A stretch of DNA of 13,640 bases from a bacterium (lineage in GTDB: Bacteria; Zhuqueibacterota; Zhuqueibacteria; Oceanimicrobiales; Oceanimicrobiaceae): contig JBHHXN010000141.1 in NCBI GenBank assembly GCA_046757025.1, positions 1-13,640 on the forward strand. Reading direction: 5' to 3'. Position 1 is the first letter of the stretch. Every line of letters starts with the position of its first letter. This document shows positions 1-13,640 of the stretch, piece by piece. Both the position numbers and the translations under genes were made by a program. The notes beneath the pieces were generated by a model. It did no database searches. It saw only the letters and a program-made list of their open reading frames with translations, and was not told the origin of the DNA.

Positions 1-605
1 TGCCCCGCTTGCCTACTTTGAGCCGCCACCTCTGCTTCTCGCGGAGAACCAGCGGAGTCCCTTTTAGCTTTGCTTTGAATTCCAAATTCGTACCCCCGGT
101 CAAAGGCCCTTTTATTCAATTCCAGATAGCGCGCCGGCACGCTACCCGGAATGGCTTTTTTGAACGACGCCGCGGAAATCGTGCCCGCTACTGCCGAAAA
201 GAAACCGAGCATCACTAAATTCGCCAAGATTTTATTGCCTAACTCCTCGGCAAAACGCGTGGCTGGAATGGTGAATTTCTTTATGGCGTCGTTGACGGAT
301 GCGGTCTTCACCAGGTCTTCATCCACTAAAAGCACCCCCCCATTTTCCAGTTCTGGCAAGAACTTGTCGCAGGCATCCTGGGACATCGACACCAAAATGG
401 TTGGTTTTGTAATGTACGGATAAAGTACCGGTTCATCCGAGACCACTAGCTGTGCGCTGCAAGCGCTGCCCCGGGCTTCCGGGCCGAAGCTCTGGGTCAT
501 GGTGGCGTGCTTGTTGTCAAATAGGGCGGCGGCTTTACCAGCCAAGATACCGGACAGGATGACACCTTGTCCGCCGAATCCCGAAAATCTAATTTCCGTT
601 CTCAT
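1..605 (-). CDS. korC: 2-oxoacid:ferredoxin oxidoreductase gamma subunit (3' end runs off window)
   Basis: Manual translation from ATG at 605, overlapping the beta-subunit stop: MRTEIRFSGFGGQGVILSG...TQSFGPEARGSACSA...ANLVMLG...LNKRAFDRGY. It has the GxGGQG and GPEARG gamma motifs. No stop before position 1, which explains its absence from the ORF track. Confidence 0.92.
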   Translation of the reverse strand, partial: MRTEIRFSGFGGQGVILSGILAGKAAALFDNKHATMTQSFGPEARGSACSAQLVVSDEPVLYPYITKPTILVSMSQDACDKFLPELENGGVLLVDEDLVKTASVNDAIKKFTIPATRFAEELGNKILANLVMLGFFSAVAGTISAASFKKAIPGSVPARYLELNKRAFDRGYEFGIQSKAKRDSAGSPREAEVAAQSRQAG

Positions 606-1476
606 CAGCAACCTTCCCATAAGATTCATATTTTTCCCCAAAGACTTTACGAAACCGCTGATTCAGCGCGTCCATAAAAGTCGGACGCTCAGTGTCCACA
701 AATTTGCCAATAACGATCTTATCGCGATAGGCGATGTCCAACTCCCGCGTGTCTATGCCATGTTTGATCACACTGCTGTCGTGATAATATTTCAACTCAT
801 CCAATCCATCGCCCAGTCGATTTCGGCGCGAATAGAGAGTCGGACAGGGCGCGACAATCTCCACGAAGGAGAAGCCTTTTTTCTGCAAGGCTTCAGTCAT
901 CGATTTTGTGAGCCGCCGGATATGCAGCGCCGTCCAGCGCGCGACATAGACGGCGCCGCTGCTTTCAGCCAGAAAAGGCAAGTTAAAAGGGTGTTCAAAG
1001 CAACCGTAAGGGGACGTCGTGGTAGTGGCCGGTTCCGGGGTCGTAGGGGCCAACTGGCCGCCGGTCATCGCGTAGTTGAAATTGTTGATGCACAGCACGG
1101 TGAGGTCCACATTCCTGCGAGCCGCGTGAATAAAGTGGTTGCCGCCAATGGCGATGAGGTCGCCGTCCCCGCTGAAGACCACGACCTTCAACTCCGGATT
1201 CGCCAGTTTGAGACCGGTTGCGAAAGGAATAGCGCGGCCGTGGGTGGTATGGAACGAATCCAATTTAACGTAACCGGCGATGCGCCCGGAACAGCCGATT
1301 CCGGAAACCACCGCAATCTTGTCCAGAGGAATTCCTGCTTTCTCCAACGCCATCGCGAAGGCGGTTACGGCGGTGCCGATGCCGCAGCCGGGACACCAAA
1401 TGTGAGGCATCCGGTCCATACGCAGAAGACTCTCCATGGGATGGGTCGGTTGACCGGCGTGAATCGCTGAGTTCAT
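589..1476 (-). CDS. korB: 2-oxoacid:ferredoxin oxidoreductase beta subunit (TPP-binding)
   Basis: Motifs WCPGCG, SGIGCS, HGRA, GDGD...GGNH, NNFNYAMTGGQ and CPT. Start reassigned to ATG 1476, which has a GGAGG RBS and an ATGA overlap with the alpha stop. Substrate (2-oxoglutarate vs other 2-oxoacids) cannot be resolved. Confidence 0.93.
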   Translation of the reverse strand: MNSAIHAGQPTHPMESLLRMDRMPHIWCPGCGIGTAVTAFAMALEKAGIPLDKIAVVSGIGCSGRIAGYVKLDSFHTTHGRAIPFATGLKLANPELKVVVFSGDGDLIAIGGNHFIHAARRNVDLTVLCINNFNYAMTGGQLAPTTPEPATTTTSPYGCFEHPFNLPFLAESSGAVYVARWTALHIRRLTKSMTEALQKKGFSFVEIVAPCPTLYSRRNRLGDGLDELKYYHDSSVIKHGIDTRELDIAYRDKIVIGKFVDTERPTFMDALNQRFRKVFGEKYESYGKVADENGN

Positions 1477-2636
1477 TTTGTCGCCTCCTGAATGATTTTG
1501 AAAATTTCTTTGGGATCGTGCACCCAGCCGCCGGCGTGGGGCGCGAGGAAGACTTTGGCGTTGCCGGCCACGCACCGCTCTAACTCATAGACCATCTGTC
1601 CGAGATTAAGCTCGACCATGACAAACGCTTTTACTTTTTTGGCAAGCTGTTTAATACGTTTTTCGGGAAATGGCCAGGCGGTCAGAAGCCGGAATGACCC
1701 GACCCGCAAGCCCTTTCTTTTGGCCATTTCAATCGCTGGCAGGGACACTCTCGAACTTATGCCGTACGAGACGACCACGATGTCCGCATTTTCGACCCCA
1801 TCTTCTTCATATTGGATAATATCCTTGGCGTTTTTGTTGATTTTGTTTACAAGCCGGCAAACGCTCTTCTTCTGCACCTCGGCATTCATGGCCGGGTAGC
1901 CTCTCTCATCGTGCGTCAGACCCGTTACGTGAAATCGGTAGCCATCGCCGGCATTCACCATGAGCGGTATCATTCCGTTATCGCCGTTGACAGCGTAGGG
2001 TAAGTATTGGTCTTTAGGGCCGGCATACAATCGCCGGTTAGAGACATCGATTTTATCCGCTGGCGGAATCACGACCTTTTCGGTCATGTGGCCCACGCAT
2101 TCATCCATCATCACCAGAACCGGCACCCGATAGGTTTCCGACAGATTAAACGCCCGGACAGTCAAATCAAAGCATTCTTGCGGAGAGTTGGGGACTAGGG
2201 CGATGATTTCGTAATCTCCGTGTGAGCCCCAGCGCGCCTGCATCATGTCTTGCTGACCCGGCAGCGTCGGCAAACCCGTGGATGGCCCGCCCCTCTGGAC
2301 ATTCACGATGACGCAAGGCGTTTCAGTCATCACACCCAGCCCGATGTTCTCCATCATTAAAGAAAAGCCCGGCCCGGAAGTGACGGTCATGGATTTTTTC
2401 CCACCCCAGGAGGCGCCCAGAATGGCCGCTATAGAAGCCAGCTCATCTTCCATTTGGATAAAAATGCCGCCAACCAACGGAAAGCGCGCGGCAATTTTCT
2501 CCGCGACCTCTGTGGAGGGTGTGATCGGATACCCCGCAAAAAATCGGCAGCCGGCCGCCAACGCGCCCTCAGCGCAGGCATGATCGCCGTCTAAATAATG
2601 AGCTCCGGTCAAAACACCTTTGGGGTCAGGTTTCAA
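1473..2636 (-). CDS. korA: 2-oxoacid:ferredoxin oxidoreductase alpha subunit
   Basis: Motifs AGYPITPSTE, QMEDE, TSGPGFSLM, QRGGPSTGLPT and VELNLGQ. Likely start is TTG 2636 (GGAG just upstream, overlapping the end of delta). The ORF-track start is 2660. Confidence 0.93.
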   Translation of the reverse strand: MKPDPKGVLTGAHYLDGDHACAEGALAAGCRFFAGYPITPSTEVAEKIAARFPLVGGIFIQMEDELASIAAILGASWGGKKSMTVTSGPGFSLMMENIGLGVMTETPCVIVNVQRGGPSTGLPTLPGQQDMMQARWGSHGDYEIIALVPNSPQECFDLTVRAFNLSETYRVPVLVMMDECVGHMTEKVVIPPADKIDVSNRRLYAGPKDQYLPYAVNGDNGMIPLMVNAGDGYRFHVTGLTHDERGYPAMNAEVQKKSVCRLVNKINKNAKDIIQYEEDGVENADIVVVSYGISSRVSLPAIEMAKRKGLRVGSFRLLTAWPFPEKRIKQLAKKVKAFVMVELNLGQMVYELERCVAGNAKVFLAPHAGGWVHDPKEIFKIIQEATK

Positions 2637-2943
2637 GGATCTCCACCCCCTTTCCTGCATCCACCGTCATCTCGGGTATTGGCTGCTGGTCTTTTAATGT
2701 GACAAAAATCGAAAATTCAGGACAAATGATTTCACACAGTTGGCATTGGACACACTCGTTTGCTTTGACAACAACGGGGGGATGGTATCCCTTGGTATTG
2801 AAACCATCGGAGAGTTGCAAAACCTCTATGGGGCAGTATTCCACGCAAAATCCACATCCTTTGCACTGGTCTTCAAGGATGTGAATCACGCCTCGGGGAA
2901 CTTCAATTTTATCGGCATCCAAAGGTTTACGCCAGTGTTTCAC
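2626..2943 (-). CDS. korD: 2x[4Fe-4S] ferredoxin-like delta subunit of the 2-oxoacid oxidoreductase
   Basis: Two CxxCxxCxxxCP motifs (CKGCGFCVEYCP, CVQCQLCEIICP). GTG start with AAGGAG RBS. First gene in delta-alpha-beta-gamma order. Confidence 0.9.
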   Translation of the reverse strand: MKHWRKPLDADKIEVPRGVIHILEDQCKGCGFCVEYCPIEVLQLSDGFNTKGYHPPVVVKANECVQCQLCEIICPEFSIFVTLKDQQPIPEMTVDAGKGVEILET

Positions 2944-2982
2944 GGAGTTTTCTCCTTCAAATAGATTTCAGTTTCAAAAGTT

Positions 2983-3010
2983 CCAATTACTAAATTCCAA
3001 TCACCAATCG
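2983..3010. repeat. Degenerate heptamer tandem repeat
   Basis: CCAATTA CTAAATT CCAATCA CCAATCG: four 7-nt units in the GNAT-korD spacer. Confidence 0.4.
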
Positions 3011-3055
3011 TCAGTTGTTTTTTGAGATTTATGTCAGTTTGTGAGGTTTGTTTTT

Positions 3056-3652
3056 CTATCCATTATGAATTCGAATATCAAAGTCACCTATGTGATCCTC
3101 CATCAAATACCAGTAATCTTCTATGTCAAGGGTCATAATAATGAGGTTTTCTCGTTTACCGTGTGTATCGGTAACGTGCTTTCTGAGCGTGGCTTCTTTT
3201 CGGAACCCGAACCTTTCGAAGGCAGTGATCGCGGATTCTTGAGCTTCAACCATTTCAGCCTGAAGTTTGTGAATTTTGGCTTTCAAAGCATAAAAAAATA
3301 GTTCACGAACAAGAATTGTTCCCAGACCATTTCTTCGGTAGTTTGGAACGATCAGCACCCTGACCTCACCCAAATGGCGTTTCCAACCCATCTCTGCTTT
3401 AAATATCGTTGCAATCCCGATTATTTTGTTTTCATCAAACGCAAGAATGGGATAAACATGGACGTAATCTAAGTTGCCAAATCGACGTTCAACCTTTTTT
3501 CTGTCGGTCACATCAATGCGGAGAAATTGTCTATTCTCCTCAGGTATGGAGCGATAAAACTCCAGTAGCGCATCCAGGTCTTCCTTGACCATTAATCTTA
3601 ATGTTAATTCACTATTATCCTTCAAAGTTACTATCTTGGGATATTCTGCCAT
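3056..3652 (-). CDS. GNAT family N-acetyltransferase
   Basis: Acetyl-CoA motif A (VPNYRRNGLGT) and motif B (AITAFERFGF). N-terminus VTLKDNSELTLRLMVKED resembles the GNAT domain of Pat-type protein acetyltransferases. GAGG RBS. Confidence 0.88.
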   Translation of the reverse strand: MAEYPKIVTLKDNSELTLRLMVKEDLDALLEFYRSIPEENRQFLRIDVTDRKKVERRFGNLDYVHVYPILAFDENKIIGIATIFKAEMGWKRHLGEVRVLIVPNYRRNGLGTILVRELFFYALKAKIHKLQAEMVEAQESAITAFERFGFRKEATLRKHVTDTHGKRENLIIMTLDIEDYWYLMEDHIGDFDIRIHNG

Positions 3653-3845
3653 GATTTTGCCTCATTTTCCGTTCTTTTTGCCAAAATAAAACGGGTGTAT
3701 ATTAAGACTGCTAGTCCCTTCAGTGAATAGCTCACTTTTATTTAAATTTGCTGCGATTTCGGGGGGATCCAGAGAACCAAAGCGAAACGTTATGCGCCCT
3801 CGGCACATGGTTGCCTCATTTAAAAAAATAGTCCCCTGCGGTACC

Positions 3846-3972: not shown

Positions 3973-4018
3973 GAAACTCTGTTGATTTTCCTATTTTTAG
4001 GAAAATCAACAGAGTTTC
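3973..4018. repeat. Perfect 21-bp inverted repeat with 4-nt loop
   Basis: GAAACTCTGTTGATTTTCCTA-TTTT-TAGGAAAATCAACAGAGTTTC. Confidence 0.9.
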
Positions 4019-4393: not shown

Positions 4394-4430
4394 TGTAATG
4401 AAACACTACAATTTGTCCTGATTCATTACA
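4394..4430 (+). promoter_or_regulatory. Tandem upstream activating sequences for a sigma54 enhancer-binding protein
   Basis: Two TGT-N11-ACA sites 20 bp apart: TGTAATGAAACACTACA (4394-4410) and TGTCCTGATTCATTACA (4414-4430). The outer arms TGTAATGAA/TTCATTACA form a perfect inverted repeat. Confidence 0.6.
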
Positions 4431-4477
4431 AGAACGCCTTTTCTAAATTCCTCATTTTGCATCATTTATTAATAAGC

Positions 4478-4490
4478 TAAGTAATTGATA
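4478..4490 (-). promoter_or_regulatory. Putative IHF binding site
   Basis: Minus strand TATCAATTACTTA matches WATCAANNNNTTR and lies between the UAS and the -24/-12 element. Confidence 0.6.
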
Positions 4491-4520
4491 TTGCTAAAAT
4501 AAGTCACAGGACCGATTTGC

Positions 4521-4535
4521 TGGCATTCTCTTTGC
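4521..4535 (+). promoter_or_regulatory. sigma54 -24/-12 promoter
   Basis: TGGCATTCTCTTTGC has exact GG-N10-GC spacing, about 70 bp upstream of ATG 4604. Confidence 0.7.
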
Positions 4536-4603
4536 CTGAACTAAAGGTCAAATGTCATATCCGATGGATTTCAATTTTCGTCATTTTAAAATGTAGGCCT
4601 TCC

Positions 4604-4981
4604 ATGAAATCAATACTACTTGTCAGTGCTGATTTTAAAGCGAGTGTCCAGTTGGTGAAAAAGGTGCGGAGATACGGTTTGGATGGGTATTGGGTCAATA
4701 CTGGCCGAGAGTGTCTCGAAATTCTAGAAAGTAGTGAGCTTTATGCCGTGCTAATTGATAACTCTATTATCGACATAAATGGGGTCATTTTACTGGAATT
4801 AGTGATTAAGTTAAAGCCGAAAATAAATTTGATATTTGTCAACAGCAAGCAAAAACCGAAGATCGAATCTCAGGCTCGTCAGGCTGGGATTATTTATTAC
4901 ACGACGGACATGCGAGATCAAGAGATTACTCGCGTCATCTCGGAATTAGCGACAAAGCATCCACAACAATATAAAATGTAA
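4604..4981 (+). CDS. Stand-alone atypical receiver (CheY-like) domain protein
   Basis: Receiver-fold pattern MKSILLVSAD...TGRECLEIL...AVLID...NGVILL...LIFVN...ARQAGIIYY. Start reassigned to ATG 4604 because the track start at 4517 lies at the promoter. Confidence 0.75.
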   Translation: MKSILLVSADFKASVQLVKKVRRYGLDGYWVNTGRECLEILESSELYAVLIDNSIIDINGVILLELVIKLKPKINLIFVNSKQKPKIESQARQAGIIYYTTDMRDQEITRVISELATKHPQQYKM

Positions 4982-5038
4982 TAAGAAAGTGCCGCAGACA
5001 CAGGTGTTTATTTCTCATAAAACGGAGCGGGTCGAATC

Positions 5039-7498
5039 GTGAAAATCAGAAAAATCTTCTATAGATATTGTACTGCAATCCTATTAATTGGCGTGGTATT
5101 TTGGTCGTGCAAAGACCAATTTATAGTATCTTCACCTACGCTCACAGTGACACTCACTGCCACCCCTGTATTCGGAGAAGCTCCCCTCAGCGGAGTAGAT
5201 CTTACCGCTCAGATTAGCGGGGGCGGCAAAGGTGCCGTCACCTACCGATTTGATTGCACGAGCGATGGAATTTTTGATGTGGAGACAACCACCGATGACG
5301 AGACGTTTACTGCTGTCGACGTGTGTAGCTATGAGAATCCCGGGACGTACACAGCAAGAGTCGTAGTGGAACGTGGCGATATGTCTTCAAATGCAACCAT
5401 TACCCTTAATGTTGCAGCACCATCGCCCTCTCAGACTGCAGAAGATAGCATCGTCGTTTCCATGGAAGACAACTTTTTTTCTCCGAAAGAAGTGACTGTG
5501 AAACCCGGTACGAAGATCATCTGGCTCAACGTTGGTCAAAGACCGCATACATCGACAAGCGACGATGATCTATGGGATTCAGGAACCATCAATAAAGGCG
5601 AGACCTACAGTTGGATAGTTCCTGAGGAGACTCAATCGGGAGCCAGTTACCCGTATTATTGTGTGTTTCATGGGGCTAAGGGTGGAATAGGAATGGCAGG
5701 TTTGATTAATATAGACGACGGAACCGGGACACCGCTATCTGACACAGTGAATGTTTCCATGAAGGATAACTTTTTCTCACCGAAAGATGTAACCGTTGAA
5801 CCCGGAACAACGATTCTTTGGAAAAACTTTGGACTCATTGCGCATACCTCCACAAGCGATGACAATATTTGGGATTCCGGTACAGTTGGACAAGGGGAGT
5901 CCTACGCCTGGAAGGTTCCGGCAGACACACAAATGGGCGTTGATTTTCCTTATTATTGTATCTTTCACGGAGATCCAGGCGGTGTAGGAATGGCGGGTAC
6001 TATCCATGTCAGTCCAGGAGGGCCAACGCTCTCTGTAGCATTGACCGCCGAACCGGCTGCTGGAGAAGCGCCGTTGCAGGGCGTCGACCTGACGGCTCAG
6101 GTCAGCGGCACGGCCACCGGTTCAATTACCTACCGTTTTGACTGCACGGGCGACGGCGCCTTTGAGCATGAGTTTACCGGCAGCTCCGATATTTATACCG
6201 CTGTTGATGTGTGTGGTTACGACAGCGCCGGTAGCTATACGGCGAAAGTCGTGGCGGAACGGGAAGGTTTAACGGCGGAAGCCACAACGACGCTGACTGT
6301 TGATGAGCCACCGCCTCCACCGACCGGCGGAGAGATGACGGTTTCGATGAAGGATAACTTTTTTTCACCGCGAGAAGTGACGGTGAAACCGGGCACGAAG
6401 ATTGTCTGGCCCAATGTGGGGGCCAGACCTCATACATCGACGAGCGACGACGGCGTCTGGGACTCCGGCACGATTAATACCGGTCAGTCCTTTAGCTGGA
6501 CCGTGCCTCAGACCGCACAATCTGGCAACGATTTTCCTTACTACTGTGTTTTCCATGGCGCCCAGGGCGGTATTGGCATGGCCGGATTGATTCATGTTGA
6601 TGAAGCGCCGCCAACAGGGCCAACGCTGTCCGTTGCTTTGACCGCCGAACCGGCTGCTGGAGAAGCGCCGTTGCAGGGCGTCGACCTGACGGCTCAGGTC
6701 AGCGGCACGGCCACCGGTTCAATTACCTACCGTTTTGACTGCACGGGCGACGGCGCCTTTGAGCATGAGTTTACCGGCAGCTCCGATATTTATACCGCTG
6801 TTGATGTGTGTGGTTACGACAGCGCCGGTAGCTATACGGCGAAAGTCGTGGCGGAACGGCAAGGATTAACGGCGGAAGCGACGGCGACGATCACGGTAGA
6901 TGAGCCGCCCCCGCCGCCGACGGGCAATGAAGTAACGGTTCAGATGAAGGACAACTTTTTTTCGCCCCGGGATGTTGTCGTTCAACCCGGGGTCAAAATA
7001 ACGTGGGAAGCTGTCGGCCGGAAAGACCACACCTCGACCAGCGATACCGGCATCTGGGATTCGGGTAGGTTGGCCCCGGGTGGTTCGTATAGTTGGACGG
7101 TTCCTGCAAATACTCAAGAGGGTACTAACTTCCCTTACTACTGTGTCTTCCATGGAGACAGAGGCGGTAAAGGGATGGCCGGCACCATTCATGTAAGTAA
7201 TGATAGTACGCCACCCCCGGTAGTCAGCGATACGGTTATAGTAACGGTTTCAGGGTCTTCCTTCAGCCCGGAAAAGGTAGAGATAGAGCCGGGGACCACC
7301 GTGCTCTGGAAATTTTCTGGCGCCACCCACAATGTGACCTTCGAAGACGACGAGGAGACGCCACCCGGAGGTAATATTCCGGATTCGCCGCCAGGTTCTG
7401 AAGTGGCGCGGATATTCCCGGCTGAAGGCGACTACGATTATGAATGCACTTTGCACAAAGGTCAGGAAGGAAGAATTCGAGTGCGAAATGAAAACTAA
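5039..7498 (+). CDS. Lipoprotein with five cupredoxin (type-1 Cu) domains and three PKD-like domains
   Basis: Lipobox-like VVFWS-C24. Four domains with HTSTS...YYC(V/I)FH-x7-M and a fifth with HNVTF...CTLHKGQ. Three PKD-like repeats (GEAPL.GVDLTAQ...YRFDC..DG...VC.Y...G.YTA.VV). Pro-rich linkers. Confidence 0.88.
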   Translation: MKIRKIFYRYCTAILLIGVVFWSCKDQFIVSSPTLTVTLTATPVFGEAPLSGVDLTAQISGGGKGAVTYRFDCTSDGIFDVETTTDDETFTAVDVCSYENPGTYTARVVVERGDMSSNATITLNVAAPSPSQTAEDSIVVSMEDNFFSPKEVTVKPGTKIIWLNVGQRPHTSTSDDDLWDSGTINKGETYSWIVPEETQSGASYPYYCVFHGAKGGIGMAGLINIDDGTGTPLSDTVNVSMKDNFFSPKDVTVEPGTTILWKNFGLIAHTSTSDDNIWDSGTVGQGESYAWKVPADTQMGVDFPYYCIFHGDPGGVGMAGTIHVSPGGPTLSVALTAEPAAGEAPLQGVDLTAQVSGTATGSITYRFDCTGDGAFEHEFTGSSDIYTAVDVCGYDSAGSYTAKVVAEREGLTAEATTTLTVDEPPPPPTGGEMTVSMKDNFFSPREVTVKPGTKIVWPNVGARPHTSTSDDGVWDSGTINTGQSFSWTVPQTAQSGNDFPYYCVFHGAQGGIGMAGLIHVDEAPPTGPTLSVALTAEPAAGEAPLQGVDLTAQVSGTATGSITYRFDCTGDGAFEHEFTGSSDIYTAVDVCGYDSAGSYTAKVVAERQGLTAEATATITVDEPPPPPTGNEVTVQMKDNFFSPRDVVVQPGVKITWEAVGRKDHTSTSDTGIWDSGRLAPGGSYSWTVPANTQEGTNFPYYCVFHGDRGGKGMAGTIHVSNDSTPPPVVSDTVIVTVSGSSFSPEKVEIEPGTTVLWKFSGATHNVTFEDDEETPPGGNIPDSPPGSEVARIFPAEGDYDYECTLHKGQEGRIRVRNEN
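6041..6859 (+). repeat. Intragenic direct repeat: identical 222-bp copies at 6041-6262 and 6638-6859
   Basis: Base-by-base comparison; offset 597 bp; encodes the cores of PKD-like domains 2 and 3. Confidence 0.9.
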
Positions 7499-7655
7499 GA
7501 AATATTTATGGGTCTTGCTGCCGCTGGGATCGGTCAAGTGACTCGGCACCATTCCCCCAAAAAAAACAGGGAAGGGGAGATCATTGTTATCAGGCAACCA
7601 TCATGATCAATTGTAAATTAATTAATTATTAACTAAACAAAAGAGGAGGCGTACC

Positions 7656-9500
7656 ATGAAAAAGTACGTAATTTTAGGTGTGATTGCGGCATTGTCAGTA
7701 ACCATGTGGCTGGTGAGCTGCAAGAGCAGTAAATCACCAACCGGGCCCGACCCGTCGCCTTTCAAGAAGGCATCGGATTGGGTAGCCGGTGTAGATTGGG
7801 ATACCAGGACGGTTGTGACCATGAACATGGTCGAATCGGGCTCCGCATTATCGTTCAGTCCCAATAACCTTACCTTCGAAGCCGGCAAACCCTATGTTCT
7901 AAAGGTTGTGAATCCAGCAGGGAACGCCAGCAAGCACTATTTTGCCACCCAGGAAGTGTTTCCGGATTTTTACAAATCCATCGCAACCCGCAAGATTGAG
8001 ACGGCAGACGCTGAGTACAAGGCGCCTTATTTCCGGGCTGTAGAATTGCTGATCGGCGGCGAGCTTGAGATCTACTTTGTGCCGGTTCTTGCTGGAGAGT
8101 ATGACTTCCTGTGTACGATTCCTGGACATGCTGCTGCCGGAATGACCGGCAAGATCACCATTACCGGCGGCGAAGGCTATGAATTAGATTTGGAGGTAGA
8201 CCCCAGTTTTGATACCGGTCTGATCACCGATCCCAGAACCTCCGGTTCGCATGAAGTCTGGACGACTGCTCGGGAACTTACCGTTGAGATGGTTGAAAAT
8301 GCCGACGGCTCTTTGGCCTACAGTCCATCTAATTTGAATTTGATGGTGGGCAAAGGATACAAAATCAACATCGTGAATGCGGCCGGACATGTGAGTAAAC
8401 ACTACTACACCGCAGCCGAGTTTTACAAAACGACGGTCACGCGGAAGGCTGAAGATGGGTATGCCGAGATAAAGATGCCCTACATGAAAGCCGTAGAGCT
8501 GCTGATTGGCGGCAAAACCGAACTCTTTATGGTGCCGACCAAAGTTGGAACGTACGAAGTATTCTGCACCATTACCGGACACAGAGCCGCGGGCATGGAA
8601 GGACTCGTCATAACAGTGGCGGATGCGCCATCGCCTTTTGTCAACGCATCAGATTGGGTGGGCGGTGTGAATTGGGATGAAAAAGAAGAGGTGACGATAA
8701 ACATGGTCGAATCGGGCTCCGCATTATCGTTCAGTCCCAATAACCTTACCTTCGAAGCCGGCAAACCCTATGTTCTAAAGGTTGTGAATCCAGCAGGGAA
8801 CGCCAGCAAGCACTATTTTGCCACCCAGGAAGTGTTTCCGGATTTTTACAAATCCATCGCAACCCGCAAGATTGAGACGGCAGACGCTGAGTACAAGGCG
8901 CCTTATTTCAGGGCCGTCGAATTGTTGATCGGCGGCGAGCTTGATATCTACTTTGTGCCGGTTATCGCCGGAACGTATGACTTCCTGTGTACGATTCCCG
9001 GCCATGCCGCAGCCGGAATGACCGGAAAGATCGTCATTACCGGCGGCGCAGGGTATGAGTTAGATTTGGAAGTAGACCCGGGTTTCGATACCGGTCTGAT
9101 CACCGATCCCAGAACCTCCGGTTCGCACGCAGTATGGTCGACTGCTGAAGAACTCACAGTCAACATGGTTGAAAACGCCGACGGCTCTCTGGCTTATGAT
9201 CCGCCCAATTTGAACCTGACGAAAGACAAAGGTTACAAAATACACATCGTTAATGCAGCCGGGCATGTGAGTAAACACTACTACACGGCCTCTGAGTTCT
9301 ATAAGACCACGGTTACGCGTAAAGCTGAAGATAACCACGGCGAGATAAAGATGCCCTACATGAAAGCCGTCGAGCTGTTAATTGGCGGCGAAACCGAACT
9401 TTTTATGGTTCCGACTGTGGCAGGACAATTCGAGGTATTCTGCACCATCACCGGCCACAGAGCCGCGGGCATGGAAGGACTCGTCATCGTAGTCGAGTAA
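7656..9500 (+). CDS. Lipoprotein with four cupredoxin (type-1 Cu) domains (duplicated two-domain unit)
   Basis: GAGGAGG RBS; lipobox WLVS-C. Four KHY(F/Y)...CTI(P/T)GH(A/R)AAGM motifs, i.e. a C-x4-H-x4-M loop as in rusticyanin, auracyanin and CopI-type cupredoxins. 292-aa internal repeat. Confidence 0.9.
   Translation: MKKYVILGVIAALSVTMWLVSCKSSKSPTGPDPSPFKKASDWVAGVDWDTRTVVTMNMVESGSALSFSPNNLTFEAGKPYVLKVVNPAGNASKHYFATQEVFPDFYKSIATRKIETADAEYKAPYFRAVELLIGGELEIYFVPVLAGEYDFLCTIPGHAAAGMTGKITITGGEGYELDLEVDPSFDTGLITDPRTSGSHEVWTTARELTVEMVENADGSLAYSPSNLNLMVGKGYKINIVNAAGHVSKHYYTAAEFYKTTVTRKAEDGYAEIKMPYMKAVELLIGGKTELFMVPTKVGTYEVFCTITGHRAAGMEGLVITVADAPSPFVNASDWVGGVNWDEKEEVTINMVESGSALSFSPNNLTFEAGKPYVLKVVNPAGNASKHYFATQEVFPDFYKSIATRKIETADAEYKAPYFRAVELLIGGELDIYFVPVIAGTYDFLCTIPGHAAAGMTGKIVITGGAGYELDLEVDPGFDTGLITDPRTSGSHAVWSTAEELTVNMVENADGSLAYDPPNLNLTKDKGYKIHIVNAAGHVSKHYYTASEFYKTTVTRKAEDNHGEIKMPYMKAVELLIGGETELFMVPTVAGQFEVFCTITGHRAAGMEGLVIVVE
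7824..8909 (+). repeat. Intragenic direct repeat: identical 210-bp copies at 7824-8033 and 8700-8909
   Basis: Base-by-base comparison; offset 876 bp, within a larger diverged duplication. Confidence 0.9.
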
Positions 9501-9541
9501 TGGACGAAGAGTACGAATCATAACCTTTTTCATCGTTGAGC

Positions 9542-9571
9542 ACAGAGGGGACAAATAAAAGTCCCCTCTGT
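9542..9571 (+). terminator. Stem-loop after the tetra-cupredoxin gene (terminator or mRNA-stabilising hairpin)
   Basis: ACAGAGGGGAC-AAATAAAA-GTCCCCTCTGT, a perfect 11-bp stem, but with no clean U-tract. Confidence 0.55.
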
Positions 9572-9612
9572 AGAAATTATTTAATAAAAGTGATTAAGTG
9601 TATCGCAGATTC

Positions 9613-10056
9613 ATGAAAGTTCATCTCCAGATTATTCATTTATTCATAGCGGTGCTTTTTGTGTTTCAGCAAAGCCCGTTCTTTTGGTTGGGGTTTCAAA
9701 AGGAGGATTCCGTAGCTTGTTCACGTGGAGAAATGGGCTCCTGCTGCCGCGGTTCTGGAAACGGCGAGGTGCGATGCAAGAGTGGAGAACCTGATGCTGA
9801 TGAAGGAATGTGCTATGTGGCCAGTTCATGCCATAATGATTCAGAACCGAATATGGTTGTGGAAATATTCAAACCCTATCTCTCAGTGCCTTTCTGCACA
9901 CAAATGCCCTATACGGGGAAATCGTTGAACTTTCACTGTGATTTAGAGATTTATTCAGATGTCAAACTACCGTGTCACGAAAAACCTCCTGAGGAGTCGC
10001 TCAGGTTTAGCTCATACTCTTATCCTTTAATGTATATGAACGACAAACGTGTGTGA
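9613..10056 (+). CDS. Cys-rich exported/membrane small protein, candidate metal-responsive leader
   Basis: N-terminal hydrophobic helix, Cys cluster (C-x7-CC...C...C-x5-CH) and late CHEKPP motif, directly upstream of a beta-barrel gene. Start is ATG 9613 or GTG 9598. Confidence 0.6.
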   Translation: MKVHLQIIHLFIAVLFVFQQSPFFWLGFQKEDSVACSRGEMGSCCRGSGNGEVRCKSGEPDADEGMCYVASSCHNDSEPNMVVEIFKPYLSVPFCTQMPYTGKSLNFHCDLEIYSDVKLPCHEKPPEESLRFSSYSYPLMYMNDKRV

Positions 10057-10072
10057 ACAGGAGGAATCCAAA

Positions 10073-11104
10073 ATGAAGAAATTAACCAGTGTCGTCGTTT
10101 TTATCGGGGGTGTTTTTCTTGGCAGTTGGCAGAATAGTCAGTTCTCGATAATTCCCGATTCTGTCTCAGCATGCGACTATTGCATATTAACCCGTGGATT
10201 TACCCCTCCGGAAACTCTACCGGGGTTTGGGCTGCGAGTAGATGCCCGATACACTCTTCTTAACTCGGTCTTTTCAGGCACGAATCAAGTTATAAACCAT
10301 AGCGGTGAAAAGGAAACCCACTTTACCACCCAGATCACCATGTTCTACAATTTTTCAGACAAATTTTCACTCGTGGGGATCTTGCCTGTTCCAAGACGAT
10401 CAGTGTCCGTAAATGCCCGGGCGGAGCACCATGACGGCGAAACGGAAATTGAAGCGGCGCATGGCCATGATCCGGTTCATAGACACACCGGCTCTGGTAC
10501 ATCCTTTAATTTGGGGGACTTAAATATCTTAGGCAGATATACATTTCTACGACTTAACTCATTTAAGCAATCTACTACGCTGACTTTGGAAACCGGTATT
10601 AAAATTCCGACCGGCAGCACCAACTCCCGGGACGCCGAAGGCAATTTCTTAGATGCTCATATACAACCGGGGACAGGTTCCTGGAACTTCCTGATTGGGT
10701 TTTCTGTCAATCACGCCAATGACTACTTTGGTCTTTCAAGCAACCTTCTCTATTCGATAAACACCACAGGAGAAGCCGGGGATGATAACTATCGATACGG
10801 AAATTGGTTGAATGCCGACCTTACCGCAAAGTATGAGATGTTTGCATCTGAAATGAGAAATCGAAATCTGTTTCTAACGCTTGGAATAAATGGTGAGTTT
10901 CGCGGCAAAGAAGAAATAGACGGCCAGGGCATTAAGAATACCGGCGGCAAGGTTCTGTACATAGTTCCTGGTTTTCAGTTTATGATTTCACCAGCTATCA
11001 CTATCGAGGCTTCGTTTCAATATCCCTTTCACCACAATCTAGATGGTGGGGAGCAACTCGGTGAAAGCTTAAAAACTTTCTTCGGTGTTAATTATTTATT
11101 ATAA
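10073..11104 (+). CDS. Outer-membrane beta-barrel transporter (MetA-pathway/SphA-like family) with N-terminal CxxC and His-rich loop
   Basis: AGGAGG RBS before ATG 10073; signal-like N-terminus then ACDYC. Family-like motifs GDLNILGRY, GIKIPTG and QPGTGSW. His-rich loop EHHDGETEIEAAHGHDPVHRH. Beta-signal-like C-terminus FFGVNYLL. Confidence 0.75.
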   Translation: MKKLTSVVVFIGGVFLGSWQNSQFSIIPDSVSACDYCILTRGFTPPETLPGFGLRVDARYTLLNSVFSGTNQVINHSGEKETHFTTQITMFYNFSDKFSLVGILPVPRRSVSVNARAEHHDGETEIEAAHGHDPVHRHTGSGTSFNLGDLNILGRYTFLRLNSFKQSTTLTLETGIKIPTGSTNSRDAEGNFLDAHIQPGTGSWNFLIGFSVNHANDYFGLSSNLLYSINTTGEAGDDNYRYGNWLNADLTAKYEMFASEMRNRNLFLTLGINGEFRGKEEIDGQGIKNTGGKVLYIVPGFQFMISPAITIEASFQYPFHHNLDGGEQLGESLKTFFGVNYLL

Positions 11105-11146
11105 TATTATTGCAGACTTTTGCACTTTTTTGCAAAAAAATTAAAT

Positions 11147-11401
11147 TGCAAAAATCAAATAGCAAAATGACAATACAAAAATTAAAAACTACCGGACAGC
11201 AGATGTCCGGATACCAGGCCAACAATATTGTGCTGTTGTATAATTAAAGAAGCAGTAACGAACAGCACATAAATTAAGTTATCAGAGAATCTTATTCTGT
11301 GTCAATTTCAATTCTGTGGGCTACTTTTTTCGCAGCACTTGAGTTCAAGTTTATATTTAGATTTGTCATTTTACATTTTCATCTTTGATTTTGCATTTTG
11401 C
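11147..11401. repeat. Imperfect long inverted repeat with A-rich/T-rich, roughly heptameric arms enclosing small hairpins
   Basis: AAAATCAAA (11151-11159) pairs with TTTGATTTT (11384-11392); AAAATGACAA (11164-11173) pairs with TTGTCATTTT (11363-11372). Internal stems CCGGACA/TGTCCGG and TGTGCTGTT/AACAGCACA. Confidence 0.55.
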
Positions 11402-11540
11402 GGCTTGCCGCGCTGGGATAGGAATTGTAAATAAATGGTTGCCATGCAAGAATTGACTAGGCGAGGGCGTCTGCGTGAGCATCTGGGGAGTTTTCTTTCA
11501 GACACTAACTACTTTGTAGTGATCCGAGCTGAAAATTAAT

Positions 11541-11735
11541 GTGGCTACCCCCCAAAAATTGGGATTGAATGAAGCAATAAGTCCATACAAAACAATAAGT
11601 TATATAATACAAAAAAATTAAAATATTCAATTCTGATTCTACACAGTTTCTAACTGTGTATGTATCGCATTTGTGCCTAAACACGGTTGCAAACCGTGTT
11701 GGATCATGCTAATTCAAAAAAATGGGGGGTAGCCA
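11541..11735. mobile_element. MITE-like non-autonomous element
   Basis: Perfect 13-bp TIRs TGGCTACCCCCCA (11542-11554) / TGGGGGGTAGCCA (11723-11735), flanked by direct repeats GAGCTGAAAATTAAT (11526-11540 and 11736-11750). No transposase ORF. Confidence 0.82.
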
Positions 11736-11753
11736 GAGCTGAAAATTAATTTC

Positions 11754-11782
11754 TTGACTTTTTAATCAAATTTATATATAAT
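11754..11782 (+). promoter_or_regulatory. sigma70-type promoter for the cytochrome c operon
   Basis: TTGACT-N17-TATAAT, about 160 bp upstream of ATG 11941. Confidence 0.7.
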
Positions 11783-11940
11783 AGACGCCTATTAAAATAA
11801 TGTCCTTAACTTCCACAGCTCTGATCAACCCGCTCAATCCAAATTAGACTCCTGGTTACCGAAATTCTCAAAGAAATGCAGAGTTGAGAAGATTTGTTAC
11901 AAAGACTGTATCAACTTAAAATCGTATTGAGGGAGGGATT

Positions 11941-12864
11941 ATGACCGATCGAATAAAATATACCCCGCTGCTTTTTTCTCTGCTGATTTTGCTGCAGGGT
12001 CATCCCGAAGCGCTGTTTAGTCAGGGACAAACGGAGGCTGCAGCAGCCCTTGTCCGTGGCGAGCAGATTTACCGAGGGGCTTGCGCGCCCTGTCACGGAG
12101 TAAATGGCGATGGCAAGGGACCGTATTATGAGGCGCTAACCCCCAAGCCTCGTAATTTCACAACCGGAAAATTTAAGTTTCGCACCACATCTTCCCGGTC
12201 GGTGCCAACTGATCAAGACCTCTTCAAAACGATATCAAAAGGGTTGCCCGGGACGTTCATGCCCGCCTGGGAAGATCTGCTTTCTGAAAAGGATCGGATG
12301 GCTTTGGTTCAGTACATCAAGACTTTCTCAAAAAGATTTGCGAGATCTGGTGATTCATTCGAACTAATTGAAGTGTCCAATGAGGTTCCCTACTCGCGTG
12401 ACAGCATCATCAAGGGTAGGAAGGTGTATAGAGATCTGGAGTGTGCAAAATGTCACGGAGATGAGGGCCGGGGTAATGGCCCCTCAGCCAAGGATCTGGA
12501 AGACGAATGGGGTTATCCAATCCGCCCTCGTGATCTTACAAAAAGTTGGGAATTCAAAGGCGGAATTAGCAGAAAGAAGATTTACCTGCGACTGATGAGT
12601 GGGTTATCCGGTGCACCCATGCCATCCATGGCAGAGAGTTTCGTTCTTGATGAAGAGATCGATGACATCAAAATCAAGATCGAAGATGAGGAGGAACTCA
12701 CGGCTGAGGAGCAGCAGAAGTATGATGCGGCAATGGCCGAGATACGCGAGAAGGTATGGCATCTTACTAATTTTGTGAGATCCCTTTCAGGAAGCCCGAG
12801 CTTACTTTACCGTTTGTTTGTTGAGGATACTGAAGTAACCAAACAAAGGAGTGAGGAAAAATGA
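11941..12864 (+). CDS. Periplasmic diheme cytochrome c
   Basis: Signal peptide; CAPCH and CAKCH; PRNFT..KFKFRTT and PRDLT motifs; candidate Met axial ligands in MPAW and MPSM; GAGGGAGG RBS. Confidence 0.9.
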   Translation: MTDRIKYTPLLFSLLILLQGHPEALFSQGQTEAAAALVRGEQIYRGACAPCHGVNGDGKGPYYEALTPKPRNFTTGKFKFRTTSSRSVPTDQDLFKTISKGLPGTFMPAWEDLLSEKDRMALVQYIKTFSKRFARSGDSFELIEVSNEVPYSRDSIIKGRKVYRDLECAKCHGDEGRGNGPSAKDLEDEWGYPIRPRDLTKSWEFKGGISRKKIYLRLMSGLSGAPMPSMAESFVLDEEIDDIKIKIEDEEELTAEEQQKYDAAMAEIREKVWHLTNFVRSLSGSPSLLYRLFVEDTEVTKQRSEEK

Positions 12865-13346
12865 AGGCTAAATTACTTGGGGACATATCATATCTTGCGG
12901 GACTAATCTTGATCTGCATGTTTATATGGGTTTCTTGTAGAGGGGATGGCGTCGGTTTGACCGAAAGCGGCGACTTGCCCACTGAAGGCCCTTTAAGCTT
13001 TGCCAGTCAAATTCAACCTATCTTCGACGCTAATTGCACACGCTGTCATACGTCTGGCGGCGTTGGTTTCAATGCCACGGGCGGGAGCCAGAATAACGGA
13101 TTGGACTTAACCTCTGGGAATTCTCATGGAAGATTGGTAAATCAGCGGACTTTTGAGTTGTCGAATGTACAGCCGAGATGGCGCATACTTCCGAATGAAC
13201 CCGACAGCAGTTACGTTGTACAAAAAATCACCTCTTCTTCACCCAAATTCGGAAACCGTATGCCGTTGGATGGACCGCCCTATCTTTCGCAAAGTCAAAT
13301 TCAATTGATTAGAGATTGGATTGAACAAGGTGCGCCAAATAACTAG
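12861..13346 (+). CDS. Lipoprotein monoheme cytochrome c (planctomycete cytochrome c-like domain)
   Basis: ATGA overlap with the upstream gene; lipobox IWVS-C; FASQIQPIFDANCTRCH...RMPL...IRDWIEQGA. Confidence 0.85.
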   Translation: MKAKLLGDISYLAGLILICMFIWVSCRGDGVGLTESGDLPTEGPLSFASQIQPIFDANCTRCHTSGGVGFNATGGSQNNGLDLTSGNSHGRLVNQRTFELSNVQPRWRILPNEPDSSYVVQKITSSSPKFGNRMPLDGPPYLSQSQIQLIRDWIEQGAPNN

Positions 13347-13359
13347 GAGGAGGGAAGCG

Positions 13360-13640
13360 ATGACTAAGAGTTTAGGCAGTATTGTAATAGTTATTGTTTT
13401 ATTACTTGAGGTTCTTGTTTTTGAAACTTTGCCCGCTCGCGCCGAACCCTATCTGGCGATTCGTACGGGATTTAAATGTAGTCAATGTCACGTAAACCGC
13501 ACCGGAGGCGGCAAACGGACGGCCTTTGGCGTCATCTACGCTCAGACCAGGCTCTATACCAAAATCATTCAATCTGCTAAACGGTCCAGCTTTTTTGACG
13601 GGAAATTGAGTAACTCGGTCTCAATTGGAGCCAATTTTCG
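13360..13640 (+). CDS. Cyc2-like monoheme cytochrome c, probably porin-fused (partial, runs off window)
   Basis: Manual translation after an AGGAGG RBS: MTKSLGSIVIVIVLLLEVLVFETLPARA-EPYLAIRTGFKCSQCHVNRTGGGKRTAFGVIY...VSIGANF. Signal peptide with AxA, then a P-x-x-A-x-x-TG-x-x-CxxCH motif near the mature N-terminus, as in Cyc2. The barrel lies outside the window. Confidence 0.65.
   Translation, partial: MTKSLGSIVIVIVLLLEVLVFETLPARAEPYLAIRTGFKCSQCHVNRTGGGKRTAFGVIYAQTRLYTKIIQSAKRSSFFDGKLSNSVSIGANF

What the first reader, a model, noticed from the sequence alone, without database searches (positions are those of the whole stretch)
4394..13640. Candidate new envelope electron-transfer system: nine blue-copper sites on two lipoproteins next to a Cyc2-like cytochrome operon
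Seen: two adjacent lipoproteins with 5 + 4 complete type-1 Cu ligand sets, a CxxC/His-rich beta-barrel, a diheme cytochrome c, a lipoprotein monoheme cytochrome c and a Cyc2-like N-terminus, all co-oriented. Known: the Acidithiobacillus rus operon links Cyc2, diheme Cyc1 and single-domain rusticyanin for Fe(II) oxidation, and most electron-transfer cupredoxins are single-domain. Inference: polymeric, membrane-tethered cupredoxins could act as 'copper wires' or capacitors, analogous to multiheme cytochromes, with the barrel supplying Cu. An alternative is CopI-like copper sequestration. The copper and heme genes have separate promoters, so linkage is unproven.
Basis: partly seen in the sequence, partly recalled or inferred. 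Interest (0 to 1): 0.85.

Follow-up and report, generated by a model that had tools for sequence, protein, structure and literature searches.

The report
Multi-copper relay beside cytochrome-porin conduit
Uncultured bacteria carry predicted lipid-anchored proteins built of repeated blue-copper domains next to haem proteins and a predicted haem-plugged outer-membrane pore, and this conserved gene set likely forms a previously undescribed copper-rich route for drawing electrons into the cell.

Summary
(1) There are nine type-1 ligand sets, but the fifth in the 819-aa protein has an axial Gln, not Met. (2) The last ORF is not a Cyc2-family member: 0 of 92 homologs carry either Cyc2 motif. It is a separate cytochrome-porin family, predicted as a 16-strand OprP-like barrel and distantly homologous to Cyc2-like proteins.

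A paralogous locus in the same genome and loci in KSB1, Gemmatimonadota and Bacteroidota keep it: 21 of 29 loci of the four-domain protein's family have a cytochrome-porin within 10 kb. Six of 12 long loci continue into the bd-like oxidase module known from Nitrospira and Manganitrophus. One CopG-type gene, but no copper-efflux or multicopper-oxidase gene, was found among 86 neighbours.

Against: the haem triplet usually occurs without the copper proteins (6 of 80 loci). Cu-Cu distances could not be measured, and the 819-aa protein looks like beads on a string rather than a wire.

Best reading: an envelope electron-uptake chain, an analogue of the Acidithiobacillus rus pathway, with tethered poly-cupredoxins as relays or electron stores. 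The donor is unknown. No description was found in the searches run.

The parts
4517..4981 (+). Stand-alone response-regulator receiver, conserved directly upstream of the copper genes
   Evidence: Pfam Response_reg E 4e-5, below cut-off; homologs upstream of B or A in G001, G004, G013
5039..7498 (+). Protein A, predicted lipoprotein: PKD-Cup-Cup-PKD-Cup-PKD-Cup-Cup(Gln); four His-Cys-His-Met sets and one His-Cys-His-Gln set; acidic (pI 4.3)
   Evidence: paralog of 1223 aa with seven cupredoxin domains on C63
7656..9500 (+). Protein B, predicted lipoprotein: two copies of a two-cupredoxin unit, four His-Cys-x4-His-x4-Met sets, auracyanin/AcoP-like domains
   Evidence: (halves 86.6% identical in DNA)
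9598..10056 (+). Small Cys-rich ORF (152 aa from GTG; ATG at 9613), no family hit
   Evidence: homolog at the same place in G001
10073..11104 (+). Predicted outer-membrane barrel, MetA/PF13557-like, with N-terminal CDYC and a His-rich loop; possible metal importer
   Evidence: Atlas look-alikes score 0.98, PF13557 in 17-57% of members, TM 0.78-0.80; no direct Pfam or NCBIfam hit
11542..11735 (.). MITE-like insertion with 13-nt terminal inverted repeats and 15-nt flanking direct repeats (11526-11540, 11736-11750)
   Evidence: second copy on C185, 94.5% identical, with its own flanking repeat
11754..11782 (+). Sigma-70-like site (11 of 12) upstream of the haem genes
   Evidence: the scan overall found 18 sites against 15.2 +/- 3.8 expected, so this is weak evidence
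11941..12864 (+). Diheme cytochrome c, two predicted His/Met haems (C48/C51/H52/M107; C168/C171/H172/M227)
   Evidence: 55% identical to the diheme part of the diheme-EB_dh protein of G013
12861..13346 (+). Monoheme cytochrome c, predicted lipoprotein (Cys26; CxxCH at 59-63)
   Evidence: beside the cytochrome-porin in 67 of 80 loci
13360..13640 (+). N-terminal 93 residues of a ~360-aa cytochrome-porin fusion, cut by the contig end

Best explanation
The region encodes two predicted lipoproteins with nine blue-copper ligand sets beside three haem proteins, and together they likely form an envelope chain that would carry electrons from a donor outside the cell to a terminal oxidase. Proposed order (inferred, not shown): a dissolved donor, most likely Fe(II) or Mn(II), reduces the single haem plugging the cytochrome-porin. 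The electron passes to the adjacent monoheme lipoprotein. The lipid-tethered poly-cupredoxins accept one electron per site and act as relays and a short-term store. The His/Met diheme carries electrons on to an O2-reducing oxidase: the bd-like TO_1 module in relatives, and here either an unassembled downstream copy or one of the genome's two haem-copper oxidases. The CxxC/His barrel would supply copper. Shown: ligand sets, domain architecture, conserved gene order. Predicted: barrel fold. Inferred: copper binding, electron flow, direction, donor.
For: - Same genome, contig C63: canonical-motif Cyc2-like gene, cupredoxin-like gene, kinase, sigma-54 regulator, B (2 domains), A (7 domains), diheme, monoheme, complete cytochrome-porin, two more cupredoxin-like genes.
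- G013: window's order without A, continuing into bd-like oxidase, two cytochromes and diheme-EB_dh; its two contigs overlap by 55 nt.
- G004:C71: A-barrel-diheme-monoheme-porin with no gap over about 20 nt between the longest ORFs.
- 29 GTDB loci of B: 21 have a cytochrome-porin within 10 kb (18 Cyc2-like, 14 this family); 17 have the diheme next, one of them partial; 6 of 12 with 9 kb or more downstream reach the bd-like oxidase. In 7 of the 17 the first haem motif starts within 200 nt of B's stop.
- L029: Cyc2-like, B, decaheme, MtrB/PioB porin.
- L058: 17-, 32- and 8-haem cytochromes fill the slot before the diheme where B usually sits.
- Among 167 genomes of the phylum, A and B occur in the same 4, all among the 6 with the cytochrome-porin (these are kin, not independent).
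- Porin fold: OprP Z 24.2, rmsd 2.7, 275 aligned, the template also reported for Cyc2 (10.1101/228056).
- Precedent: Cyc2-rusticyanin-Cyc1-oxidase (PMC13741234); diheme-to-AcoP transfer (PMC10804444); Cyc2 and TO_1 highly expressed in a Mn(II) lithotroph (10.1101/2021.11.15.468770).
Against: - The haem genes mostly occur without the copper proteins: B in 6 of 80 cytochrome-porin loci, and in 4 of 35 with 3 kb or more upstream; A-type in 1. The copper proteins are therefore optional.
- 7 of 29 B loci show no diheme or cytochrome-porin neighbour. Four of these end within 3.5 kb downstream; L027, L033 and L042 do not.
- No bd-type oxidase gene was found in this 94.8% complete genome, nor in G004.
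- The window's porin fails the Cyc2 motifs, so iron-oxidase evidence for Cyc2 does not transfer. Function is called most uncertain even for cluster 3 Cyc2.
- 18 of the 29 loci are Gemmatimonadota, so the counts are not independent.
- A promoter-like site and a long gap separate copper and haem genes in this window.
- Domain number varies from 2 to 7, which fits dosage or storage more than a fixed-length wire.
Confidence: 0.52

Rival explanations
1. A and B are CopI-like periplasmic copper buffers or copper donors that protect, or help assemble, a haem- and copper-rich operon, and carry no respiratory electrons.
For: CopI protects c-type cytochrome assembly from copper (PMC4600104 passages), which would explain co-location with cytochromes. 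B scores weakly against CopI models (50.6 bits). Variable domain number fits dosage. A possible metal-import barrel is in the cluster. One DUF411 (CopG-type, name recalled) gene lies near a stand-alone B at L027.
Against: The score is far below the CopI cut-off of 280. CopI's His-rich and His/Met-rich segments (PMC13308877 abstract) are absent: B has 2.3% His, 2.9% Met and no HxH. No CopA, Cus or multicopper-oxidase family appeared among 86 of 86 unlabelled neighbours within 4.5 kb. A buffer need not sit within 200 nt of the diheme gene.
Confidence: 0.17
2. The chain serves nitrite oxidation or nitrate reduction, with the cupredoxins as carriers between a periplasmic Nxr/Nar-type enzyme and the bd-like module, and the porin as an anion channel or sensor.
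For: The downstream module matches the NXR-associated cluster of Nitrospina, Nitrospira and anammox bacteria, where copper carriers were proposed (PMC3578206 passages). This genome has a TAT-type DMSO-reductase type II operon with a diheme-EB_dh gene on C19. The closest porin folds include anion-selective ones.
Against: The Mo enzyme was found in only 2 of the 4 KSB1 genomes with A and B, and not in G001 (99% complete) or G004 (97%). It was found in 1 of 5 Gemmatimonadota genomes with the cluster (completeness not given). It is not adjacent in the loci read.
Confidence: 0.1
3. The chain moves electrons outward to an external acceptor, or reports the external redox state to the linked histidine kinase and sigma-54 regulator, and conserves no energy from an outside donor.
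For: A kinase and sigma-54 regulator pair is conserved upstream. The genome has 34 reading frames with four or more haem motifs, up to 31. Some loci link to bc-type complexes. A 98%-conserved His in the porin's last strand could give a bis-His, low-potential haem (inference).
Against: Type-1 copper and His/Met haems are usually high-potential (established knowledge, recalled), which suits uptake towards O2 better. Several loci run straight into a candidate oxidase.
Confidence: 0.13
4. A and B face the cell exterior and themselves oxidise metal ions or contact minerals, a copper counterpart of MtrC/OmcA, passing electrons inward through the porin.
For: PKD-like spacers and Pro-rich linkers are common in surface proteins (recalled). 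B units also occur in a 1740-aa predicted secreted protein and fused to PF18962 or Big_2 domains. Predicted extracellular cupredoxins rise during magnetite oxidation in Sideroxydans (PMC11429942 passages).
Against: No localisation evidence was obtained. No type-2/3 motifs for O2 reduction are present. A single haem at the periplasmic mouth could not span the membrane (argued for Cyc2).
Confidence: 0.08

Closest known systems
Acidithiobacillus ferrooxidans rus pathway (Cyc2, rusticyanin, Cyc1, AcoP/Cup, aa3 oxidase)
   Same: Fused cytochrome-porin, diheme cytochrome c, type-1 cupredoxins and, in relatives, a linked terminal oxidase. AcoP is the top, though tied and modest, single-domain match to B (Z 9.2, rmsd 2.4, 115 aligned).
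   Different: The cupredoxins are multi-domain (2-7 sites) predicted lipoproteins. Many loci have two kinds of cytochrome-porin. There is an extra monoheme lipoprotein. The linked oxidase is bd-like, not aa3. B is below the rusticyanin cut-off (73 vs 146.7 bits).
Cyc2 fused cytochrome-porins
   Same: One N-terminal CxxCH and a predicted 16-strand OprP-like barrel; profile match to the neighbouring Cyc2-like family over 315 columns, probability 94.4%, E 9e-8.
   Different: No PxFAR[QK][TY] and no PxL motif in 92 of 92; closest members are 359-360 aa; a conserved C-terminal His.
TO_1 / NXR-associated bd-like oxidase module (Manganitrophus, Nitrospira, Nitrospina)
   Same: bd-like subunit, two cytochromes c, a haem-b EB_dh protein and cupredoxin-like genes lie directly downstream in G001, G013 and six Gemmatimonadota loci.
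   Different: Here it is joined to cytochrome-porins and poly-cupredoxins, which the passages read do not describe. It was not found in the window's own assembly.
CopI (Rubrivivax) copper-tolerance cupredoxin
   Same: Periplasm-type cupredoxin with a C-x4-H-x4-M type loop; weak profile score.
   Different: CopI carries His-rich and His/Met-rich segments, which A and B lack. CopI is single-domain. No copper-efflux genes lie nearby.
Multicopper oxidases, ceruloplasmin, Cu nitrite reductase
   Same: Several cupredoxin domains in one chain; these top the Foldseek list.
   Different: Every domain here has a type-1 set and none has HxH/HCH type-2/3 motifs. Multi-domain superpositions have rmsd 13-25 A.

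Membership tests
Cyc2 | Single N-terminal CxxCH after a signal peptide | tested here: met
   92 of 92 have one CxxCH; leader helix in the model; no signal-peptide predictor was run
Cyc2 | 16-strand OprO/OprP-like porin | tested here: met
   Model of P0001, a stand-in 88% identical over the window's 93 residues: 16 long strands, pLDDT 89; OprP Z 24.2, rmsd 2.7, 275 aligned
Cyc2 | AxPxFAR[Q/K][T/Y] motif upstream of CxxCH (10.1101/228056) | tested here: not met
   0 of 92, also 0 with a relaxed pattern; the neighbouring Cyc2-like family has 8 of 17 strict and 16 of 17 relaxed
Cyc2 | PxL motif after CxxCH | tested here: not met
   0 of 92, against 17 of 17 in the Cyc2-like neighbours
Cyc2 | Length of 365 aa or more (FeGenie filter) | tested here: inconclusive
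   The window's gene is truncated; closest homologs are 359-360 aa; 48 of 92 reach 365
Cyc2 | FeGenie Cyc2 HMM match; Fe(II) oxidase activity | not testable with these tools
   The HMMs are not among the libraries; no assay possible
Type-1 (blue) cupredoxins | Cupredoxin fold with His...Cys-His-axial ligand | tested here: met
   eight Met sets and one Gln set. A was not modelled
Type-1 (blue) cupredoxins | Bound Cu with type-1 UV-vis/EPR signature | not testable with these tools
   Needs protein
Multicopper oxidases | Type-2/type-3 HxH and HCH motifs | tested here: not met
   None in A or B
Multicopper oxidases | MCO/NiR-like domain packing | tested here: inconclusive
   Only single domains superpose well on the predicted model of B
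CopI | NCBIfam CopI cut-off | tested here: not met
   B 50.6 and A 36.5 bits against 280
CopI | His-rich and His/Met-rich segments | tested here: not met
   feature taken from the abstract of PMC13308877
CopI | Copper induction and tolerance phenotype | not testable with these tools
   No expression data available
rus operon | Cyc2, diheme and cupredoxin in one cluster | tested here: met
   C63 paralog locus; 18 of 29 B loci have a Cyc2-like gene; in the window itself the porin is the non-Cyc2 family
rus operon | Rusticyanin proper and a linked aa3 oxidase | tested here: not met
   TIGR03095 73 vs 146.7 bits; the linked oxidase in relatives is bd-like; what follows the window is unknown
TO_1 / NXR-associated module | bd-like oxidase, two cytochromes c and a periplasmic haem-b protein in a row | tested here: inconclusive
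   Met in G001, G013 and 6 of 12 long loci; not found in G000; oxidase clade (OR-N subfamily) not tested

The most novel reading that the evidence does not exclude
Poly-cupredoxin lipoproteins are copper counterparts of multihaem cytochromes: interchangeable chains of type-1 sites that conduct and store electrons between a new family of cytochrome-porins and a bd-like oxidase, letting uncultured KSB1 and Gemmatimonadota draw energy from Fe(II) or Mn(II).
Probability: 0.2. Interest if true: 0.9.

Novelty: new variant of a known kind. Interest (0 to 1): 0.7.

Why it matters
Known multi-centre electron conduits in cell envelopes are haem-based (recalled), and the electron-transfer cupredoxins of the rus pathway are single-domain. 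Proteins with up to seven type-1 sites and no oxidase centre, genetically tied to cytochrome-porins, make it directly testable whether copper chains can relay or store respiratory electrons. The cluster also links a Cyc2-type entry point to the enigmatic bd-like TO_1 oxidase, both highly expressed in the Mn(II) lithotroph Manganitrophus, which gives a gene-order argument for a complete outside-to-oxygen chain. It adds a cytochrome-porin family that motif-based Cyc2 screens would miss, and suggests metal-fuelled energy metabolism in two lineages usually treated as heterotrophs.

Tried and rejected
- Remainder of the last ORF: not found in the assembly by tblastn with an 88% identical homolog or by end overlap.
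- Family scans of full-length cytochrome-porin homologs: no Pfam or NCBIfam hit over cut-off; no PDB sequence relative for that family or, beyond one chance-level hit, for the Cyc2-like family.
- Cu-Cu distances: the folding tool returns no coordinates. A was not modelled because both jobs went to the porin and to B.
- Complex prediction for B with the diheme was not available, so binding is untested.
- No RNA holder was listed.
- Sigma-54 and FNR/CRP pattern scan (consensus recalled): no convincing intergenic site in the window. Promoter and terminator counts were at chance level.
- MtrB/PioB, multicopper oxidase and cydA families: not found in this genome. The NosZ search was uninformative because no control rang.
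- G001 contigs C45 and C112 share no exact overlap; their adjacency is inferred from the split A gene only.
- Literature: no description of this cluster or of all-type-1 poly-cupredoxins appeared in ten searches. The library lacks most subscription papers, and no supplements were opened. PMC10367259 reports 'sulfocyanin' in two Gemmatimonadota genomes, which may be this family under another label; this was not checked.
- Rejected: multicopper oxidase (no type-2/3 motifs), chance motifs (invariant ligands), Cyc2 membership (motifs absent).
Full report
Setting. The window is the whole of contig C141 of a 5.96-Mb genome, 94.8% complete. The last gene is therefore cut by the assembly, and its remainder is not on another contig. 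A GTDB locus titled candidate division KSB1 matches a same-family relative in gene order and sequence, so the lineage is likely KSB1. The genes left of 3652 (2-oxoacid:ferredoxin oxidoreductase subunits, a GNAT) are on the other strand and unrelated.

The copper proteins. A (819 aa) reads PKD-Cup-Cup-PKD-Cup-PKD-Cup-Cup. Four domains have His...Cys-x2-His-x7-Met; the last has His764, Cys803, His806 and Gln809. The Gln domain closes 9 of 9 A-type proteins examined, which carry 2 to 7 cupredoxin domains where complete. Full-length A is rare: 3 of 43 hits, two from this genome. B (614 aa) is a duplicated two-domain unit (86.6% DNA identity between halves) with four His...Cys-x4-His-x4-Met sets that align to auracyanin B. 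Among 81 homologs, 51 have two sets, 23 have four and one has six. All 16 ligands are invariant in the 23 four-domain proteins aligned. The model of B has pLDDT 90.5 and pTM 0.64, which I read as well-formed pairs with an uncertain hinge. Only single domains superpose on solved structures (best AcoP, Z 9.2, rmsd 2.4, 115 aligned, tied with others); multi-domain fits have rmsd 13-25 A. Neither protein has HxH or HCH motifs or His/Met-rich stretches, and both fall below the cut-offs for CopI, rusticyanin and plastocyanin. Tandem type-1 proteins are not unique to this family: 16 of the 150 best representatives have three or more sets, 12 of them outside the B family.

The last ORF. It belongs to a family of about 350-400 aa (105 hits) with no Pfam, NCBIfam or PDB sequence match over cut-off. 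A homolog 88% identical over the window's 93 residues folds at pLDDT 89 into a short haem-binding segment and 16 long strands. It matches OprP (Foldseek E 1e-11; Z 24.2, rmsd 2.7, 275 aligned). Cyc2 is defined by a PxFAR[Q/K][T/Y] and a PxL motif around the haem site (10.1101/228056, passages). None of 92 aligned members (92 of the 105 hits) has either, whereas 17 Cyc2-like neighbours have PxL in 17 and the strict upstream motif in 8. The two profiles align over 315 columns (94.4%, E 9e-8). It has the Cyc2 architecture, is a distant homolog, and is not a member. A His in the last strand is 98% conserved and is the only conserved His besides the haem motif; a role as sixth ligand is an inference.

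Linkage. Contig C63 of this genome carries a Cyc2-like gene with the canonical-type motif, a cupredoxin-like gene, a kinase and sigma-54 regulator, a two-domain B, a seven-domain A, then after 358 bp the diheme, monoheme and complete cytochrome-porin, and two more cupredoxin-like genes. G013 repeats the window's order without A and continues into a bd-like oxidase, two cytochromes and a diheme-EB_dh protein; its two contigs overlap by 55 nt. G001 has the same downstream run after A and the haem genes. G004 has B-diheme-monoheme-porin and, on another contig, A-barrel-diheme-monoheme-porin tightly packed. Among 167 genomes of the phylum, A and B were found in the same four, all among six with the cytochrome-porin; Cyc2-like genes were in 18 and the bd-like gene in 6. 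These are kin and not independent.

Across GTDB, 29 B loci were returned, 18 of them Gemmatimonadota. Twenty-one have a cytochrome-porin within 10 kb (18 Cyc2-like, 14 this family). Seventeen have the diheme next, one of them partial; that is 16 of 24 with at least 1 kb downstream. Six of 12 with at least 9 kb downstream reach the bd-like gene. In 7 of the 17 the first haem motif starts within 200 nt of B's stop, against 141 nt from start codon to motif in the window's diheme, leaving little room for a promoter. In L029 B lies between a Cyc2-like gene and a decaheme plus MtrB/PioB porin. In L058 17-, 32- and 8-haem cytochromes occupy B's slot. The gap in this window is partly a MITE-like insertion, followed by an 11-of-12 sigma-70-like site (overall count at chance level).

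Results against. In the best 80 of 180 confirmed metagenome loci of the cytochrome-porin, the monoheme is in 67, the diheme in 36, B in 6, an A-type gene in 1 and the bd-like gene in 3; B is in 4 of 35 with at least 3 kb upstream. The haem triplet is the core and the copper proteins are an add-on in some lineages. Seven of 29 B loci show no diheme or cytochrome-porin neighbour. No bd-family gene was found in this assembly, which has two haem-copper oxidases over cut-off. In A, ~95-residue PKD-like domains and Pro-rich linkers separate most sites. Efficient tunnelling needs roughly 14 A (recalled), so a fixed wire is unlikely there unless the chain folds back. Distances and binding could not be computed.

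Rivals. CopI protects cytochrome c assembly from copper (PMC4600104, passages), which could explain co-location. But its His- and Met-rich segments (PMC13308877, abstract) are missing, and 86 of 86 unlabelled neighbours within 4.5 kb of B gave no copper-efflux or multicopper-oxidase family, only one DUF411 at a stand-alone locus (thresholds 1e-6 and 1e-15). The downstream module is the NXR-associated cluster of nitrite oxidisers, where copper carriers were proposed (PMC3578206, passages), and TO_1 of Manganitrophus (10.1101/2021.11.15.468770, passages). This genome has an Nxr/Nar-like operon, but that enzyme was found in only 2 of 4 KSB1 and 1 of 5 Gemmatimonadota genomes with the cluster.

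Mechanism. Shown: ligand sets, architecture and conserved gene order. Predicted: barrel folds. Inferred: a dissolved donor reduces the porin's haem, and electrons pass through the monoheme lipoprotein, the tethered copper sites and the His/Met diheme to an oxidase, as in Cyc2-rusticyanin-Cyc1-oxidase (PMC13741234, passages) and diheme-AcoP transfer (PMC10804444, passages). The barrel resembles MetA/PF13557 channels and keeps CxxC and a His loop in 4 of 4; copper import is a guess. I give this mechanism 0.52; some electron-transfer role in any direction about 0.8.

Novelty. Cyc2 homologs have been reported in KSB1 and Gemmatimonadota (PMC9769843, passages), and 'sulfocyanin' in two Gemmatimonadota genomes (PMC10367259, passages). 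Ten searches showed no description of this cluster, this porin family or all-type-1 poly-cupredoxins. The library is partial and no supplements were opened; FeGenie tables there could list members. Other papers seen as passages: PMC11429942, PMC10732223 (no mention of copper or cupredoxin in the main text), 10.1101/2021.01.16.426971, PMC8301774, 10.1101/2020.06.24.168906. The rest were search listings only. Verdict: a real, conserved system; a new variant of the cytochrome-porin/cupredoxin/oxidase chain with two undescribed parts; function untested.

Noticed in passing
window 11526-11750; G000 contig C185: A 194-bp MITE-like element with 13-nt inverted ends and 15-nt target-like direct repeats; a second copy (94.5%) lies on C185.
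   Followed up: yes
P0001 residue 357 (alignment A1): A His in the last barrel strand is 98% conserved; it may be the sixth haem ligand. Cyc2-like neighbours have an invariant Asp at a similar place.
   Followed up: partly
L029:3-6319: A Cyc2-like gene, two-domain B, a diheme fragment, a decaheme and an MtrB/PioB porin in a row.
   Followed up: partly
L058:737-9191: 17-, 32- and 8-haem cytochromes stand directly before the diheme-monoheme-porin triplet.
   Followed up: no
L013:1-5221 (G001:C183); P0137: The B two-domain unit is embedded in a 1740-aa predicted secreted protein, and fused to a PF18962 sorting domain in another protein.
   Followed up: no
P0289, P0290, P0305, P0313, P0353, P0364 and others: Twelve proteins outside the B family with 3-6 type-1-like sets on flexible linkers, several with twin-arginine lipoprotein-like leaders.
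   Followed up: no
L181 (G000:C19:17000-27000): An Nxr/Nar-like DMSO-reductase type II operon with a diheme-EB_dh subunit; found in 15 of 167 genomes of the phylum.
   Followed up: partly
G000 contigs C52, C186, C94, C12: 34 reading frames with four or more haem motifs, including 31, 23, 21 and 20.
   Followed up: no
G000 contig C103:5477-18370: A second Cyc2-like gene beside a cupredoxin-like gene and a Rieske/cytochrome b/octaheme cluster; in G001 the same block lies directly upstream of B.
   Followed up: partly
window 3973-4018: A 46-nt near-perfect palindrome in the intergenic region left of the finding.
   Followed up: no
window 1-3657; G000 contig C90: The 2-oxoacid:ferredoxin oxidoreductase and GNAT block has a paralog about 70% identical on C90.
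   Followed up: no
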